A stretch of DNA of 64,000 bases, taken from positions 32,001-96,000 of the IMG/VR virus record IMGVR_UViG_3300045049_000339, one strand, 5' to 3'. Both the position numbers and the translations under genes were made by a program. Numbering within the stretch: the first letter of the stretch is position 1; each line of letters starts with the position of its first letter. The stretch comes from a virus. A model generated the notes under the pieces. The model was not told the origin of the DNA. It did not search any database and was given only the letters and a program-made list of their open reading frames with translations. Shown here piece after piece: positions 21,584-29,176 of this stretch.

Positions 21584-22336
21584 ATGAAGCTCCACCAGCT
21601 CATTGCGAAGCAGGGCAAGGTCGCCGCACGCGTGACCAACGCCGCCAGCGTCATCCACAAGGCGTCGCAGAAGCCCGCTCTGTTCACGGGCGTCAGCATC
21701 ACCTACGAGCCGCTGGCCACCAACGAGAACGACGTCTCCGCGCAGAAGCCGCCGGAGGGCAACTCCGTCCAGCTCTACGCGACCAAGGAGCTGGGCAAGC
21801 TCCGCGAGCTGCTCACCGAGTTGTACGACGTCAACGCGACGCGCGACTGGTCGAACATGGTCGCCCGTGGCACCGTCAAGGTCGGTGACAAGGTCATCCT
21901 CTCGGACGTGCCGGTCCCGTTCCTGCTGTTCCTCAAGCTGGAGCTGAACCGCCTCCGCACCGAGTTCTCCGCCATCCCGGTCCTGGACCCCTCCAAGGAC
22001 TGGAAGGTGGACACGGAGAACGGCGGCTACAAGACCGAGACCACCTGGCAGCACAGCACCCGGCGCGTCAAGAAGGTGCTGGAGCGCTCCCCGGCCACGG
22101 ACAAGCACCAGGCCGTGACGGAGGTCTACGAGGAGGAAGTGCCGGTCGCGAGGAAGGAGACCACCAACTTCTCCGGCGCCCTGAGCCGCGTGGACCGCGA
22201 TGCCCTGATCCGCCAGGTCGACCTGCTCTTCGACGCCGTCACCGAGGCGGTCGAGGAGGCCAACACGGTCGAGGTCGTGGACATGTCCGTCGGCAAGCCC
22301 ATCTTCGACTTCCTTCTGGCCCCGCTGACCCGCTAG
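21584..22336 (+). CDS. uncharacterised conserved protein (widespread actinobacterial family, possibly DUF7873)
   Basis: GAGGA RBS; KLHQLIA, QKPALFTG, DVNATRDWSN, DVPVPFLLFL, PVLDP, ATDKH, FSGAL and EEAN motifs recalled from a conserved Streptomyces family (family name needs confirmation). Confidence 0.85.
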   Translation: MKLHQLIAKQGKVAARVTNAASVIHKASQKPALFTGVSITYEPLATNENDVSAQKPPEGNSVQLYATKELGKLRELLTELYDVNATRDWSNMVARGTVKVGDKVILSDVPVPFLLFLKLELNRLRTEFSAIPVLDPSKDWKVDTENGGYKTETTWQHSTRRVKKVLERSPATDKHQAVTEVYEEEVPVARKETTNFSGALSRVDRDALIRQVDLLFDAVTEAVEEANTVEVVDMSVGKPIFDFLLAPLTR

Positions 22337-22469: not shown

Positions 22470-22712
22470 GCAGGGTGCGGAAAGCTAACAACTGAATATC
22501 AACATCAGCCGCCGTCGCAACGGTGGCATCAAGCTGAAGCTCTCGCTCAAGCTGAAGCGTCTCGGCAAGGCGTTGATCGAAGTGCGCTGTCCCATCAGGA
22601 GACGTCGGTTCGAATCCGACTCAGGGGACTACGATCCCTGGTGGTGTAGTGGAAGCATTGCCTGGTTTCTCAAATCAAGGCAGCGCCCACCGTGCAACGT
22701 CAGACCGCAGAA
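22470..22712 (+). ncRNA. putative ncRNA with hexamer-repeat tract and circularly permuted tRNA-like domain
   Basis: Phased hexamers at 22490-22554; T arm GTCGG-TTCGAAT-CCGAC, looped acceptor CAGGGGA-CTACGA-TCCCTG, then D arm GTGT-AGTGGAA-GCAT, closed by GCGCTGTC/GGCAGCGC (22584-22686). Ends are approximate. Confidence 0.75.
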
Positions 22713-25181: not shown

Positions 25182-25531
25182 AACCGACCATTGGCCGGGT
25201 CGTGCACTACCGCAGTCACGGCAGTGCGGACGGCACGTACAAGCCGGAGTGCCGCGCGGCCATCATCACGGCCGTCAAGGGCCACCACGAAGAGCACGAC
25301 CGCCGCATCTGGGTCGTCGACCTCACCGTGTTCAACCCCGAGGGGTTCTTCCTCAAGGACAACGCGCGCCAGGACGAGGGGCACGAGACGCCGGGAGATC
25401 CGGACTGCGAGTACGACGGGCGCCACGACGAGCAGCCGTTCCGGTACTGCGCCTGCGGCTGGCGTGAGGCCGCCATGCACGGAGGGACTTGGCACTGGGT
25501 TGAACGCGAACCCGAAACCGGAGACGAGTAG
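25178..25531 (+). CDS. conserved phage hypothetical protein
   Basis: KPTIGRVVHYRS...RAAIITAV...DLTVFNPEG...GTWHW, a family common in phages. Confidence 0.75.
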   Translation: MKPTIGRVVHYRSHGSADGTYKPECRAAIITAVKGHHEEHDRRIWVVDLTVFNPEGFFLKDNARQDEGHETPGDPDCEYDGRHDEQPFRYCACGWREAAMHGGTWHWVEREPETGDE

Positions 25532-25983
25532 TGCTAACCCTAGTCCTTTCAGACTGGAGTAGTCGCCCTTGTAGTACGGCTCCAAGTGCCACACCAAGGC
25601 GGCCTCGCGGGCGCGTCAAGATCAAAGGCAAGGAGATGACCGCAGCACGTGCAGCCTGGGTCAGCAAGATTGGACCTGTGCCGCCAGGGCTGTGTGTATG
25701 TCATCGGTGCGACAATCCGTCGTGTTGGGAGATCACGCATCTCTTCCTTGGTACAAATGCGGAGAACCTCGCCGATATGGCGCAAAAAGGCCGTAGTACC
25801 TGGGGCGTGAAAAACAACACCACAAAACTCACGCCACGGCAGGTCAACGAGATCCGCGCTGCGCTGCGTAGTGGGGTCGCTCAGCGAGACCTTGCCACTG
25901 TTTACGGTGTTTGCAAGTCGACCATCGGCTACATCGGTCGCGGTGAGACGTGGCAGAAGCTACCCGAGGATGAGGAGCCATGA
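25531..25983 (+). CDS. HNH endonuclease with C-terminal HTH
   Basis: VCHRCDNPSCWEITHLFLGTNAENLADM; KLTPRQVNEIR. Confidence 0.85.
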   Translation: MLTLVLSDWSSRPCSTAPSATPRRPRGRVKIKGKEMTAARAAWVSKIGPVPPGLCVCHRCDNPSCWEITHLFLGTNAENLADMAQKGRSTWGVKNNTTKLTPRQVNEIRAALRSGVAQRDLATVYGVCKSTIGYIGRGETWQKLPEDEEP

Positions 25984-26671: not shown

Positions 26672-26831
26672 GGGTGTCGGAGGAACCGGGGTAAGGAACA
26701 CGGTTACTTCATTTGACTGGATATCAAAAGGTTGTGGGTTCGAGTCCCACCGGCTCCACTTGTGGGGCTGTAGCTCAATCGGTAGAGAAAACGTGCCCGA
26801 GTTCACTTTGATATCGGTTCCCTCGACACCC
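26672..26831 (+). ncRNA. Y RNA (YrlA-like) unit 1, permuted tRNA domain
   Basis: Terminal stem GGGTGTCG..GGAACC/GGTTCC..CGACACCC; GGGGTA..CGGTTACTTC and TTTGATATC motifs; order anticodon hairpin (TTTGA-CTGGATA-TCAAA), T arm, looped acceptor, D arm. Confidence 0.85.
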
Positions 26832-26839
26832 ACAGACTT

Positions 26840-26995
26840 CCTGTCAGGGGTACAGGCAACGGCTACTTCGCTTCGAAATGCGGGTATCTGTGCAAACAGA
26901 GTGCGGGTTCGAATCCCGTCCGGCTCTTCGCTGAGTCGGTAGACGAATTGGCAAAGTCACCTACGTATCCGATGCCGACTTAGACATCTGACAGG
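26840..26995 (+). ncRNA. Y RNA (YrlA-like) unit 2, class II (Ser-like) permuted tRNA domain
   Basis: CCTGTCAG/CTGACAGG stem; same conserved motifs; CGA-containing loop, long variable arm CTGT-GCAA-ACAG, T arm, looped acceptor, D arm. Confidence 0.85.
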
Positions 26996-27007
26996 GCTAA
27001 CTTCATA

Positions 27008-27149
27008 TCTGTCCGGGGTACAGGCTGCGGTTACTTCACCTGTTAAGTGAGAGGTCGCAGGTTCGAATCCTGTCGTGGGGTGATAAGCCCCATGTAGCTC
27101 AGTTTGGGAGAGCGCTAACGTTCCCGCTGCCGCTTCGATATCGGACAGA
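27008..27149 (+). ncRNA. Y RNA (YrlA-like) unit 3, Asn(GTT)-like permuted tRNA domain
   Basis: TCTGTCCG/CGGACAGA stem; TCAC-CTGTTAA-GTGA anticodon arm; GCAGG-TTCGAAT-CCTGT; looped acceptor; GCTC..GAGC D arm. Confidence 0.87.
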
Positions 27150-27164
27150 ACACACAAACTTCAT

Positions 27165-27305
27165 AGCTGCCTGGGGTAAAGACAACGGTTACTTCCATGC
27201 GGAGGAGGTAGCGCAGGTTCGAATCCTGCCGGGGGCCTACGGGCTCCTGTCGTCTAGCGGCCCAGGACGCCTACGTTTCCGTTATCGCTTTGATATCAGG
27301 CAGCT
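27165..27305 (+). ncRNA. Y RNA (YrlA-like) unit 4, Glu-like permuted tRNA body
   Basis: AGCTGCCTG/CAGGCAGCT stem; D arm GTCTAGCGGCCCAGGAC typical of tRNA-Glu; hairpin loop ATGCGGA. Confidence 0.85.
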
Positions 27306-27306
27306 T

Positions 27307-27400
27307 GCAGAACCCATCACCGGGGTACTGCTCACGGTTACTTCACCCTTCAAAGATGAAAAAACACCGTGAGCGCTCTGAAATCGGTGGTGGGTTCTGC
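27307..27400 (+). ncRNA. Y RNA unit 5, no tRNA domain
   Basis: GCAGAACCCATCACC/GGTGGTGGGTTCTGC stem with GGGGTA..CGGTTACTTC and CTGAAATC motifs but only a short loop. Confidence 0.75.
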
Positions 27401-27443: not shown

Positions 27444-29126
27444 ATGGCCAAGTTTAACCAGAAGACCCGTACCTGGGAGAACCAGGGAGGTTCGGCCTTT
27501 CCCGCCGCAGGAACGAAGCGGCAGACCACCACGACCACGAACCACACCGGCCGTGCCGTGTGGAACCTGGACGACAAGACCAACCTGTTCTTCCGCGCCA
27601 CGTCCGCCTTCGCCGGTCAGGACACGTACTACGAGAAAGGCGCCAAGCGCGACGCCGAGGCCATCGCCTTGGTCCGAAAGCTCGCTATCGGCGACTGGGA
27701 CTGGACGGCGAAGTTCCTCGTCTGGCTGCGCGCCGAGGGCAACATGCGCACCGCGCCGGTCATGCTGGCTGTCGAGGCAGTTCGTGCACGCCTGGAGAAG
27801 AAGCTGCACCCGGCTGCCGGTGAGATGTCTCACCGTGCGCTCATCGCGGCTGTTCTCCAGCGCGCGGATGAGCCGGGCGAGATGCTCGCCTACTACGAGA
27901 ACGTCGTCGGCCGCACCATGCCGAAGGCGATCAAGCGTGGTATCGGTGACGCGGCCAAGCGCATGTACAACGAGCGCAACTTCCTGCGGTACGACAGTTC
28001 GTCCAAGGCCATCCGTTTCGGCGGCGTCGCCGAGATGGCTCAGATGCCGAAGACGCACGGCTGGCAGTCCGACCTGATCACCTACGCCATTGGTGAGCAG
28101 CACCACCGTGAGCAGGACATCCCTGACACGTTGGCGGCACTTCGTGCACGCAATGAGCTGAACAAGATGGACGCCAGCGACCGTCACGTTTTCGCGAAGA
28201 GCGCACTGGGCGGCCACATCATCAACCGCACCAAGCTGGACCTGGCCATGGCCGGGCAGTGGGAGTGGTTCATGAGTTGGCTCGGTGATGCGAAGGGTGC
28301 CAAGGCCATCACGACGAAGGAGAAGTGGACGTTCGCCGCCCAGCGCATGGGCATCATGGCGGTCGTCCGCAACCTCCGGAACTTCGACGAGGCCGGTCTC
28401 AAGACGGGCGACAGCATCGTCACCGAGATCAGTGGTCGGCTCACGAACGAGGAGCAGATCGCGAAGTCCCGCATGTTCCCGTTCCGGTTCTTCACGGCGC
28501 ACTTGCAGCTCAAGTCCGTCACGTGGGCGGCCGGTCTGGAGGTGGCGCTTCAGCACTCGCTCCAGAACCTTCCGGAGCTGCCGGGCCGGACGCTGATCCT
28601 CGTCGACACCTCGGGGTCGATGCAGCAGAAGCTCTCGGCCAAGTCCGAGATGTCCTACGCCCAGGCCGCCGCACTGTTCGGCTGTGCCCTGAAGATCAAG
28701 AACCCGGACGGGGTCAACCTGTGGGGGTTCGCCGACGGGCAGTTCGAGGCGCAGGCCACCACGGGTCACAGCGTTCTGCGCTGTGCCGAGGAGTTCTGCC
28801 GCCAGAACGGCCTGGTCGGTCACGGAACGCAGATGGAGGCGGCCGTCCGTGCCACGTACGCGGGGCACGACCGAGTCATCATCATCTCCGACATGCAGGC
28901 GTTCCCGACCGGCGGTTACAGCCGGTACGGGTACAGCTACATGACCGGTGACGTCGCTGGGGCTGTTCCGGCGCACATCCCGGTATACGGTTTCAACCTG
29001 GCCAGCGGCTCCACCACACCGCTGGGCAAGGGCAACCGGCACAGCCTTGGTGGCCTCTCGGATGTGACGTTCAAGCTGATCCCTCAGCTTGAGAAGGTCG
29101 GCCGGGGTTCGTGGCCCTGGGAGTAA
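27444..29126 (+). CDS. rsr: Ro60/Rsr ortholog (TROVE + vWA domains)
   Basis: TYYE, WLRAEGNMRTAP, QRADEPGE, PKAIKRGI, MAVVRNLRNFDEAG, SRMFPFRF, LILVDTSGSM, IIISDMQ; adjacent Y RNA-like repeats. Confidence 0.92.
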   Translation: MAKFNQKTRTWENQGGSAFPAAGTKRQTTTTTNHTGRAVWNLDDKTNLFFRATSAFAGQDTYYEKGAKRDAEAIALVRKLAIGDWDWTAKFLVWLRAEGNMRTAPVMLAVEAVRARLEKKLHPAAGEMSHRALIAAVLQRADEPGEMLAYYENVVGRTMPKAIKRGIGDAAKRMYNERNFLRYDSSSKAIRFGGVAEMAQMPKTHGWQSDLITYAIGEQHHREQDIPDTLAALRARNELNKMDASDRHVFAKSALGGHIINRTKLDLAMAGQWEWFMSWLGDAKGAKAITTKEKWTFAAQRMGIMAVVRNLRNFDEAGLKTGDSIVTEISGRLTNEEQIAKSRMFPFRFFTAHLQLKSVTWAAGLEVALQHSLQNLPELPGRTLILVDTSGSMQQKLSAKSEMSYAQAAALFGCALKIKNPDGVNLWGFADGQFEAQATTGHSVLRCAEEFCRQNGLVGHGTQMEAAVRATYAGHDRVIIISDMQAFPTGGYSRYGYSYMTGDVAGAVPAHIPVYGFNLASGSTTPLGKGNRHSLGGLSDVTFKLIPQLEKVGRGSWPWE

Positions 29127-29140
29127 TCCCAGAAACACGA

Positions 29141-29176
29141 AAAGAGCCCCCGCCTCGAAAGAGGCGGGGGCTCTTT
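29141..29176. terminator. bidirectional terminator between the convergent genome arms
   Basis: AAAGAGCCCCCGCCTC-GAAA-GAGGCGGGGGCTCTTT perfect hairpin. Confidence 0.9.

What the first reader, a model, noticed from the sequence alone, without database searches (positions are those of the whole stretch)
26701..27290. Y RNA cargoes are whole permuted tRNAs of different isotypes that keep anticodon hairpins
Seen: each of units 1-4 has a hairpin in the anticodon position ahead of the T arm. Unit 1 has TTTGA-CTGGATA-TCAAA (Arg-like arm, GGA triplet). Unit 2 has CGC-TTCGAAAT-GCG plus a long variable arm (Ser-CGA-like). Unit 3 has TCAC-CTGTTAA-GTGA (perfect Asn-GTT loop). Unit 4 has a Glu-type D/T body with loop ATGCGGA. 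In units 3 and 4, joining the bases after the D arm (CT; CCT) to those after TACTT (CAC; CC) would rebuild perfect 5-bp anticodon stems (CTCAC/GTGAG; CCTCC/GGAGG), although the register is not identical in all units. Known: characterised YrlA lacks the anticodon loop, and permuted tRNA genes matured through circular intermediates exist in some algae and archaea. Inference: these RNAs may be decoys for isotype-specific anticodon nucleases, or precursors that can be ligated and reopened into tRNAs.
Basis: partly seen in the sequence, partly recalled or inferred. Interest (0 to 1): 0.8.

Follow-up and report, generated by a model that had tools for sequence, protein, structure and literature searches.

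The report
Y RNAs that keep anticodon arms
Four of the five small RNAs upstream of this phage's Ro60 gene are inside-out but complete tRNA look-alikes that still display an anticodon-type loop, a widespread feature of this RNA family that the papers I could search labelled a variable arm or said was absent.

Summary
Window 26680-27397 is an array of five Y RNAs upstream of a Ro60/TROVE gene. Units 1-4 are YrlA-like modules in permuted order: T arm, loop-closed acceptor stem, D arm.

Each also carries a hairpin at the anticodon position. In units 2-4 a 2-3 bp hairpin plus 2-3 bases after the D arm make a 5-bp anticodon stem. The Ro60-binding helix leaves it near tRNA positions 28/29.

The design is general:
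- It occurs in about 100 viral contigs, Streptomyces and other actinomycete chromosomes, and Xanthomonas phages.
- Published oligos suggest it also occurs in the characterised M. smegmatis YrlA.
- The long-range pairs covary: 56 of 73 units against 16 after shuffling.
- Loops follow anticodon-loop rules: U33 55/57, R37 55/57, A38 52/57.
- Positions 36/37 are almost only UA or GG, while 34-35 vary freely.

The bodies are not isotype-matched to the triplets, and many acceptor stems are capped by tetraloops. This makes a tRNA-precursor role unlikely. A Ro60-docked mimic that baits anticodon-loop-reading enzymes is the best guess, and it is untested.

Chen 2014 called this hairpin "V". This scan has noted related tRNA/Y-arm designs on other DNA.

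The parts
26680..26824 (+). Y RNA unit 1. Closing helix GAGGAACCG/CGGTTCC; GGTTACTT box 26702-09; full 5-bp anticodon-position hairpin 26712-28 (loop CTGGATA); variable loop AGGTT; T arm 26734-50; acceptor 26751-57/26764-70 closed by ACTTGT; D arm 26773-88.
   Evidence: YrlA 28.1 bits, full length; 84% identical to L001 unit 1, with the loop the most changed part
26840..26997 (+). Y RNA unit 2. GGCTACTT 26861-68; hairpin CGC/GCG with the 8-nt loop TTCGAAAT 26869-82, extended by GG 26883-84 pairing with CC 26960-61; long variable arm 26885-902; T arm 26903-19; closed 7-bp acceptor 26920-39; D arm 26942-58.
   Evidence: the minimum-energy fold gives hairpin, variable, T, acceptor and D arms
27008..27150 (+). 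Y RNA unit 3. GGTTACTT 27029-36; CAC-CTGTTAA-GTG 27037-49; AG 27050-51 pairs with CT 27115-16; variable loop AGGTC; T arm 27057-73; closed acceptor 27074-94; D arm 27097-113; G26 at 27114.
   Evidence: YrlA 35.2 bits; re-ordered sequence called tRNA-Asn gtt
27165..27307 (+). Y RNA unit 4. GGTTACTT 27187-94; CC-ATGCGGA-GG 27195-205; AGG 27206-08 pairs with CCT 27270-72; variable loop TAGC; T arm 27213-29; closed acceptor 27230-49; D arm GTCT..GGAC 27252-68.
   Evidence: re-ordered sequence called tRNA-Arg gcg
27311..27397 (+). Y RNA unit 5. It has the same 5' boxes (GGGGTAC, GGTTACTT 27336-43) and a long closing helix, but no T, acceptor or D module.
27444..29126 (+). Ro60/TROVE-vWA gene (560 aa), the presumed protein partner of the array.
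   Evidence: PF05731, E 6e-11; phrog_850, E 8e-43; relatives annotated as Ro-like RNA binding protein
29141..29176 (.). A 16-bp GC-rich hairpin with T/A runs directly after the Ro60 stop codon. It probably ends the array-plus-Ro60 transcription unit.

Best explanation
Units 1-4 are YrlA-class Y RNAs whose tRNA-like module is a full tRNA, not a tRNA lacking its anticodon end.

Structure (shown, about 0.9). The RNA starts and ends in the Ro60-binding helix. From the conserved GGUUACUU box the chain enters the anticodon stem at about position 29. It then runs through a 7-nt (unit 2: 8-nt) anticodon-type loop, the 3' strand of the stem, the variable loop, the T arm, a loop-closed acceptor stem and the D arm. 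It leaves after positions 27-28, which pair back to 42-43. The anticodon stem is therefore a three-way junction, nicked at 28/29, from which the Ro60 arm sticks out.

Function (inferred, about 0.35-0.4). The RNP is a stable, non-decoding tRNA mimic that presents a native-looking anticodon loop. That loop probably gets the position-37 modification its 36/37 dinucleotide calls for. The RNP would act as bait or competitive ligand for proteins that read anticodon loops, above all tRNA-cutting anticodon nucleases. Ro60, with or without host PNPase, would stabilise or tether it. Several units with different triplets widen the range covered.
For: Structure:
- Sub-threshold YrlA hits fall on all four units, and a Ro60 gene lies next door.
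- A perfect split stem is found in 90 of 135 related units, against 15 of 135 after shuffling.
- The extension pairs covary: AG/CT 23, CG/CG 14, GG/CC 12, TG/CA 5. That is 56 of 73, against 15.8 +/- 3.2 shuffled.
- All helices covary on alignment A2.
- The junction is at 28/29 in 60 of 102 units, and ARAGORN accepts 92 of 102 re-ordered sequences.
- A separate 4-5-nt variable loop always follows the hairpin, and unit 2 has a true long variable arm as well. So the hairpin is not the variable arm.

Loop rules in 57 distinct units:
- U33 in 55, a purine at 37 in 55, A38 in 52.
- Positions 36/37 read UA 33, GG 15, UG 0, GA 1 (Fisher 1e-11).
- UA plus GG make up 84%, against 46% of 406 real tRNAs in the same contigs (p 2.5e-8).
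- The 36/37 class does not follow body similarity (26 of 48, against 22.5 expected).
- Positions 34-35 are free. Bodies at least 80% identical carry different loops in 10 of 11 pairs. The nearest relative L001 changed CTGTTAA to CTTTGGA on the same scaffold.

From established knowledge, U36-A37-A38 and G36-G37 are the determinants of t6A37 and of TrmD m1G37.

From papers:
- YrlA is modified by TruB and DusA (PMC4201824).
- A competitive-inhibitor role against an anticodon nuclease was proposed for YrlA (PMC7790460).
- Phage Ro60 and Y RNAs bind host PNPase (PMC12135203).
Against: - There are no RNA, binding, modification or nuclease data for any of these units.
- The same design sits beside rsr in bacterial chromosomes, so it is not specifically a phage counter-defence.
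- Unit 1 (U37) and unit 2 (8-nt loop) break the loop rules.
- Free variation at 34-35 fits neutral drift as well as diversified targeting.
- A decoy would have to compete with very abundant tRNAs.
- Minimum-energy folds of units 1, 3 and 4 do not return the cloverleaf.
- The viral sample was drawn with one sequence pattern and is not corrected for phylogeny.
Confidence: 0.4

Rival explanations
1. Structural relic or strut. The hairpin only completes the L-shape and the three-way junction. It looks like an anticodon loop because the module descends from tRNAs and a U-turn loop is stable. The triplets drift neutrally and nothing reads them.
For: - Positions 34-35 vary freely, and the orthologues L143 and L144 differ only at position 35.
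- Triplets do not match the bodies.
- Some units in the same arrays lack the hairpin altogether (junction classes k=0 and k=1).
- Units 1 and 2 break the loop rules.
Against: - A purely structural need does not explain the near-perfect 36/37 coupling (33 UA, 15 GG, 1 mixed).
- It does not explain the loss of A36 (1 of 57, against 20% in real tRNAs).
- It does not explain why G36 units almost always have G37 (15 of 16, against 44 of 91 in real tRNAs).
- The coupling is not tied to body lineage.
Confidence: 0.25
2. Two-piece working tRNA tethered to Ro60. RNase P cuts the acceptor cap and CCA is added, as shown for M. smegmatis YrlA. An anticodon-reading synthetase then charges the split molecule, so the RNP acts at the ribosome or with translation factors.
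For: - M. smegmatis YrlA is cut by RNase P and gains CCA in vivo, and both halves stay on Rsr (PMC4201824). Its oligos show a CCA-CTTCTAA-TGG hairpin.
- All four window units have 7-bp acceptor stems with 6-7-nt caps.
- 43 of 57 units have 7-bp stems.
- This scan noted tRNA-order versions with free acceptor ends in other phages (not checked here).
Against: - 22 of 57 caps are 4-nt loops, often UUCG or GNRA, and several others extend the stem by one pair (CTTCGG, CGCAAG). This is the mark of a deliberately closed stem.
- An A at the discriminator position occurs in only 5 of 57 units.
- Ser and Leu triplets sit on class-I bodies that their synthetases would not accept (established knowledge).
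- From general knowledge of ribosome contacts, a helix branching at 28/29 would probably clash in the ribosomal A and P sites (inference).
- Y triplets do not complement the resident tRNA set (5 of 11 overlap, chance 4.7).
Confidence: 0.15
3. Sacrificial sensor. An anticodon nuclease cuts the displayed loop. This frees Ro60 from its Y RNA gate, or yields cyclic-phosphate halves that signal damage.
For: - Y RNA gates Ro60 activity in D. radiodurans (PMC4201824, introduction).
Against: - S. Typhimurium YrlA is not cut by the damage-induced nuclease (PMC7790460).
- No RtcR, RtcB or RtcA was found among the neighbouring ORFs scanned.
- The idea is wholly inferential.
Confidence: 0.08
4. Permuted tRNA precursors. 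The ends are ligated, a circle forms, and it is reopened at the acceptor, as for the permuted tRNA genes of red algae and archaea.
For: The order of the halves matches, and ARAGORN accepts the re-ordered sequences.
Against: - The termini form a conserved Ro60-binding helix that would have to be removed precisely.
- Bacteria lack the splicing endonuclease (established knowledge).
- Acceptor stems carry tetraloop caps, and bodies do not match the triplets.
- Unit 2 has an 8-nt loop.
Confidence: 0.03

Closest known systems
YrlA (Y RNA-like A; Rfam RF02553; Chen et al. 2014 PMC4201824; Wang et al. 2018, 10.1101/312249)
   Same: - It lies upstream of the Ro60/Rsr gene.
- Its ends pair into the Ro60-binding helix.
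- It has a T arm, a loop-closed acceptor stem and a D arm in that permuted order.
- It shares the box next to the module (Rfam consensus GgaaCUA, here GGUUACUU).
- More than one Y RNA can lie at a locus.
   Different: - The solved S. Typhimurium YrlA 'lacks the anticodon loop'; its anticodon stem runs straight into the Ro helix. Here a distal anticodon hairpin with a canonical loop is kept, and the stem is a three-way junction.
- Chen 2014 saw a fourth stem-loop and assigned it to the variable arm.
- All four units score below the Rfam cut-off (35, 28, 20 and 17 bits against 69).
- This locus has five units in tandem.
Mycobacterium smegmatis YrlA (Chen et al. 2014)
   Same: The published probe and primer read TTACCACTTCTAATGGAATGGTCGC. 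That gives a 3-bp hairpin with the loop CUUCUAA, the same loop as Gordonia phage VanLee, followed by AA and a UGGUC variable loop. It also has a 7-bp acceptor stem.
   Different: It is known to be cut by RNase P and to receive CCA in vivo; nothing is known here. I could not fetch its full sequence, so the 27-28:42-43 pairs are unchecked.
Permuted tRNA genes of Cyanidioschyzon merolae and some archaea
   Same: The 3' half is encoded ahead of the 5' half, and the acceptor strands are joined by a short linker.
   Different: Those genes mature through a circular intermediate, made at a bulge-helix-bulge motif by the splicing endonuclease and a ligase. Here the termini are a conserved protein-binding helix, many acceptor linkers are tetraloops, and the hosts are bacteria.
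D. radiodurans Yrn1 'anticodon arm' (Chen et al. 2014)
   Same: It is a Y RNA modelled with a 5-bp stem in the anticodon position.
   Different: Its loop has 6 nt, it has no variable arm, the T and D arms are in a different orientation, and the authors consider it a separate lineage.
tRNA-order tRNAs with a Ro60-binding hairpin inside the anticodon stem
   Same: The three-dimensional design is the same: a whole tRNA with anticodon loop, and a Ro60 arm branching from the anticodon stem.
   Different: The strand order is opposite: free acceptor ends and a loop-closed Ro arm. I did not check these notes.

Membership tests
YrlA / bacterial Y RNA | Encoded next to a Ro60 (TROVE) gene | tested here: met
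   The array ends 47 nt before a TROVE-vWA ORF. The same arrangement is seen in L001-L003, phage Tabio, GiJojo, BRock, VanLee, Quantum, FuzzBuster and Streptomyces chromosomes.
YrlA / bacterial Y RNA | 5' and 3' ends pair into a helix carrying the conserved 5'-strand motif GNCGAAN0-1G (Chen 2014) | tested here: inconclusive
   Closing helices of 7-9 bp are present in every unit. The window has GGGGUAAGG or GGGGUACAGG in place of the motif. Relatives have GUGCGAAGG.
YrlA / bacterial Y RNA | T arm, loop-closed acceptor-like stem and D arm, in that order | tested here: met
   All seven acceptor pairs and three of five T-stem pairs covary on A2.
YrlA / bacterial Y RNA | Reaches the Rfam RF02553 gathering score (69 bits) | tested here: not met
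   Scores are 35.2, 28.1, 20.4 and 16.7 bits. The model has no positions for the extra hairpin.
YrlA / bacterial Y RNA | Bound by Ro60/Rsr | not testable with these tools
   This needs immunoprecipitation or a gel-shift assay.
tRNA (RF00005) | Cloverleaf with a 5-bp anticodon stem and a 7-nt loop carrying U33 and a purine at 37 | tested here: met
   Units 3 and 4 meet it after re-ordering. Unit 1 has U37 and unit 2 has an 8-nt loop, so those two do not.
tRNA (RF00005) | Linear gene order with free acceptor ends | tested here: not met
   The order is anticodon arm, variable loop, T arm, acceptor 3' strand, cap, acceptor 5' strand, D arm. The 31-bit Rfam tRNA hit and the ARAGORN 'tRNA-SeC' at 26682-26759 are mis-calls that use the Ro helix as a 5' half.
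tRNA (RF00005) | Body carries the identity of the isotype named by the anticodon | tested here: not met
   The top match agrees in 5 of 57 units, equal to chance. The window bodies have no close real tRNA in the reference set. That reference set is limited to 406 phage and host tRNAs from the fetched loci.
Permuted tRNA genes matured through circles | Bulge-helix-bulge motif at the paired termini, plus a splicing endonuclease | not tested
   No formal search for the motif was run. The termini hold the conserved Y RNA boxes instead.

The most novel reading that the evidence does not exclude
The Ro60 arm turns a tRNA scaffold into a programmable display. Each Y RNA shows one triplet in a native, position-37-modified anticodon loop. 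The array is a fast-evolving panel of baits matched to the anticodon-specific tRNA nucleases (or other anticodon readers) that the phage or bacterium meets. The UA/GG rule at 36/37 would mark which tRNA classes are under attack.
Probability: 0.2. Interest if true: 0.85.

Novelty: new variant of a known kind. Interest (0 to 1): 0.66.

Why it matters
Y RNAs and Ro60 are conserved from bacteria to humans, yet what the tRNA-like half of bacterial Y RNAs binds is still unknown.

A large subclass presents a rule-obeying anticodon loop with free 34-35 and coupled 36/37. That narrows the search to proteins that read anticodon loops: anticodon nucleases, the t6A and m1G37 enzymes, and synthetases. It also gives clear mutants to test.

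It corrects the working picture that YrlA has no anticodon loop. It also explains why gene finders, and the GenBank records of phages such as VanLee and GiJojo, list spurious tRNAs beside Ro60 genes.

Tried and rejected
- DNA search of the whole array against phage records found only short pieces: unit 3-like Y RNAs in FuzzBuster and Xanthomonas phages, and a tRNA-Trp/tRNA-Phe junction in phage Shaeky that resembles unit 1. The junction match is too thin to argue a dimeric-tRNA origin.
- An exact search for the M. smegmatis YrlA primer in genome contigs found nothing. The supplement of Chen 2014 and the 2020 Annual Review are not held.
- Minimum-energy folding gives the cloverleaf only for unit 2. 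I relied on comparative evidence instead.
- 'Y triplets fill gaps in the phage's tRNA set' holds in this genome: 8 tRNAs and no overlap. It fails across loci, where 5 of 11 overlap against 4.7 by chance.
- 'Each body is a tRNA of the isotype its triplet names' is rejected.
- 'The 36/37 coupling is inherited from two lineages' is rejected as far as body similarity can tell.
The stem is only weakly paired, and the L001 counterpart differs.
- No sigma-70-type promoter was found. A TTGCTT..TAGTGT pair before unit 1, partly shared with L001 (same TAGTGT; upstream hexamer TTGTAG there), is only my reading.
- No RNA ligase, kinase-phosphatase or Rtc gene was found among the neighbouring ORFs scanned.
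- MAFFT alignment A1 of all 57 units was out of structural register, so I used the 30-row subset A2. A2 rows were preselected for pairing, so searches are the unbiased tests.

Full report
**What is there.** The window is part of a 107.7-kb IMG/VR virus record. It is GC-rich and carries eight ordinary tRNA genes. At 27444-29126 lies a 560-aa TROVE-vWA protein, that is Ro60, followed by a strong hairpin at 29141-29176.

Upstream, five units each begin with GGGGTA...ACGG(T/C)TACTTC, spaced 149-168 nt apart. Rfam's YrlA model hits units 1-4 below its threshold: 28.1, 20.4, 35.2 and 16.7 bits against a cut-off of 69. Each of these units has a T arm, a 7-bp acceptor-like stem closed by a 6-7-nt loop, and a D arm, in that permuted order. 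Unit 5 keeps the frame but has no tRNA module.

**The observation.**
- In unit 3, CAC-CTGTTAA-GTG is followed by AG, which pairs with the CT that follows the D arm and G26.
- In unit 4, CC-ATGCGGA-GG plus AGG pairs with CCT.
- Unit 1 holds all five pairs in the hairpin itself.

A normal 4-5-nt variable loop (AGGTT, AGGTC, TAGC) always separates this arm from the T stem. Unit 2 has a true long variable arm as well. The hairpin is therefore the anticodon arm, not the variable arm. Unit 1 has U at position 37 and unit 2 has an 8-nt loop, so only units 3 and 4 have fully canonical loops.

**Is it more than chance, and is it general?** Ro60 relatives brought in arrays from the following sources:
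- four viral contigs;
- phages of Streptomyces, Gordonia, Arthrobacter, Microbacterium and Xanthomonas;
- nine Streptomyces/Embleya chromosomes.

A pattern scan of viral contigs added 118 loci. From these I parsed 135 units that have the 5' box, a T arm, a closed acceptor and a D arm.

- A perfect 5-bp anticodon stem with a 7-nt loop was found in 90 units. Shuffling the segment gave 15.
- Conditioning only on a 3-bp hairpin at the right place (73 units), the next two bases pair Watson-Crick with the two bases after N26 in 56 units. Shuffling the partners gave 15.8 +/- 3.2, with a maximum of 28 in 5000 trials. The pair types were AG/CT 23, CG/CG 14, GG/CC 12 and TG/CA 5.
- On a 30-row alignment, all five helices covary and beat every slid control. 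Those rows were preselected for pairing.
- The chain break lies between positions 28 and 29 in 60 of 102 perfect units.
- Re-ordered into tRNA order, 92 of 102 are called tRNAs by ARAGORN. Unit 3 comes out as Asn-GTT and unit 4 as Arg-GCG; unit 2 gets a 4-base 'anticodon'.

The same type sits beside rsr in Streptomyces chromosomes (L142-L144). A covariance model built from the alignment also found it with strong full-length matches in about a dozen of 151 sampled actinomycete genomes, most of them next to a Ro60 gene. One sampled genome, G009, is unpublished; no claim here rests on it.

**Loop rules.** In 57 distinct units of the 28/29 class:
- position 33 is U in 55;
- position 37 is a purine in 55;
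- position 38 is A in 52.

Positions 34 and 35 use all bases. Position 36 is U in 34, G in 16, C in 6 and A in 1. In 406 real tRNAs from the same loci it is U 145, G 91, C 87 and A 83.

Positions 36/37 read UA 33, GG 15, CA 5, UG 0 and GA 1 (Fisher 1e-11). UA plus GG make up 84%, against 46% in the real tRNAs (p 2.5e-8). G36 units have G37 in 15 of 16 cases, against 44 of 91 in real tRNAs (p 7e-4). The UA/GG class does not follow body similarity: the nearest neighbour shares the class in 26 of 48, against 22.5 +/- 3.8 expected.

By established knowledge, U36-A37-A38 and G36-G37 are the determinants of t6A37 and of TrmD m1G37. I did not test modification.

**Triplets and bodies.**
- The CTGTTAA loop (GUU) recurs in the window, Tabio, FuzzBuster, L002, L003, other viral contigs and three bacterial chromosomes. 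Its stem covaries: CAC/GTG, CGA/TCG, CGC/GCG, CCA/TGG.
- Triplets are nevertheless not conserved between relatives. In L001 (Ro60 61% identical), unit 1 is 84% identical but its loop changed from CTGGATA to ATGATAA. Unit 3 changed from CTGTTAA to CTTTGGA.
- L143 and L144 differ only at position 35.
- Bodies at least 80% identical carry different loops in 10 of 11 pairs.
- Bodies do not match the isotype of their triplet: 5 of 57, chance 4.0. The window bodies have no close real tRNA in my limited reference set.
- Ser-GCU and Leu-NAG loops sit on class-I bodies.
- Units within one array carry different triplets.
- Y triplets do not avoid those of neighbouring real tRNAs: 5 of 11 overlap, chance 4.7.

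**Acceptor caps.** Of 57 caps, 22 are 4-nt loops, many of them TTCG, GCAA or GAAA. Others, such as CTTCGG and CGCAAG, add a closing pair. An A at the discriminator position occurs in only 5. This points to a stem meant to stay closed. The window's caps are 6-7 nt and are not diagnostic.

**What is in print.**
- Chen et al. 2014 (PMC4201824) found YrlA near Ro60 in more than 250 bacteria and phages. [quoted passage not shown]
- The same paper showed that M. smegmatis YrlA is cut by RNase P and receives CCA in vivo. Its oligos read TTACCACTTCTAATGGAATGGTCGC, a CCA-CUUCUAA-UGG hairpin of the type described here. This is my reading of the oligos. I could not retrieve the locus.
- Wang et al. 2018 state that S. 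Typhimurium YrlA 'lacks the anticodon loop'.
- Hughes et al. 2020 suggested that the YrlA tRNA-like domain might competitively inhibit an anticodon nuclease.
- A Thermus phage Ro60 binds two Y RNAs and host PNPase.
- Searches for Y RNA with anticodon stem-loop, phage or defence found no description of anticodon arms in Y RNAs.
- Earlier notes of this scan describe the opposite strand order in other phages: a tRNA with a loop-closed Ro arm inside the anticodon stem. I did not check them.

**Reading.** The structure is well supported. These are full tRNA shapes with a Ro60 arm branching from the anticodon stem.

Function is inferred. The loop is kept in anticodon-loop form with natural 36/37 combinations, the triplet core varies, and the acceptor is usually sealed. 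That fits a non-decoding mimic that is read at its anticodon loop, that is a bait or competitor for anticodon nucleases or other loop-reading enzymes, held and stabilised by Ro60.

The rivals are a mere structural relic, a two-piece chargeable tRNA, a sacrificial sensor, and a circle-matured precursor. They are weighed in their own sections; the last is the least likely.

**Verdict.** This is a new variant of a known kind, YrlA with a complete, rule-obeying anticodon arm. It is widespread and undescribed as such in the papers I could search.

Noticed in passing
window 26720-26728 and 26807-26815: In unit 1, the loop and 3' half of the anticodon-position hairpin (GATATCAAA) are a perfect 9-nt complement of the conserved 3' box TTTGATATC of the Ro60-binding helix. 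This could allow an alternative pairing and may explain the un-tRNA-like loop (U37). By eye, L001 unit 1 has a near-copy with one extra base; the repeat tool did not report it.
   Followed up: partly
window 26682-26759; L018:1396-1467; L014:1569-1643: Gene finders mis-call Y units as tRNAs by using the Ro helix as a 5' half. Examples are ARAGORN 'tRNA-SeC(tca)' and a 31-bit Rfam tRNA hit in the window, and the GenBank entries 'tRNA-Arg(tct)' of Gordonia phage VanLee and 'tRNA-Arg(cct)' of Streptomyces phage GiJojo. ARAGORN made 31 such calls across the fetched loci.
   Followed up: yes
window 21584-22336 and about 22590-22665: A DUF7873 protein (Pfam E 1.5e-67) lies inside the tRNA cluster. 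Downstream of it is a second, Ro60-independent permuted tRNA-like module (T arm GTCGG-TTCGAAT-CCGAC, closed acceptor, D arm).
   Followed up: partly
window 27311-27397: Unit 5 is a minimal Y RNA: it has the same 5' boxes and a long closing helix but no T, acceptor or D arms. L001 has a counterpart with a different insert.
   Followed up: partly
L013:700-1360 (Xanthomonas phage Tabio, LR743528): Five unannotated Y-RNA-like units lie upstream of an unnamed Ro60-like ORF. The last unit is a GUU-loop unit 77% identical to window unit 3, although the host is a proteobacterium.
   Followed up: partly
L015:1510-1660 (Gordonia phage Rabbitrun): This Y unit has the loop ATTTTAA (UUU) and a split 5-bp stem (CG+TCC/GGACG). 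It carries an extra T-arm-like hairpin and other inserts between the first T arm and the acceptor.
   Followed up: no
L147:401-453 (Streptomyces phage Shaeky): The junction of adjacent tRNA-Trp and tRNA-Phe genes is 87% identical over 54 nt to the T arm, acceptor and D arm of window unit 1. This is a hint, and no more, that YrlA modules arose from tandem tRNA genes.
   Followed up: partly
window 25531-25983: An HNH endonuclease ORF (phrog_59, E 2e-21) lies about 700 nt upstream of the Y RNA array.
   Followed up: no
L157, L164 (actinomycete genomes G036, G098): Anticodon-arm Y units are embedded in dense tRNA arrays, with no Ro60 gene inside the 3-kb locus fetched. These may be prophage tRNA islands.
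   Followed up: no
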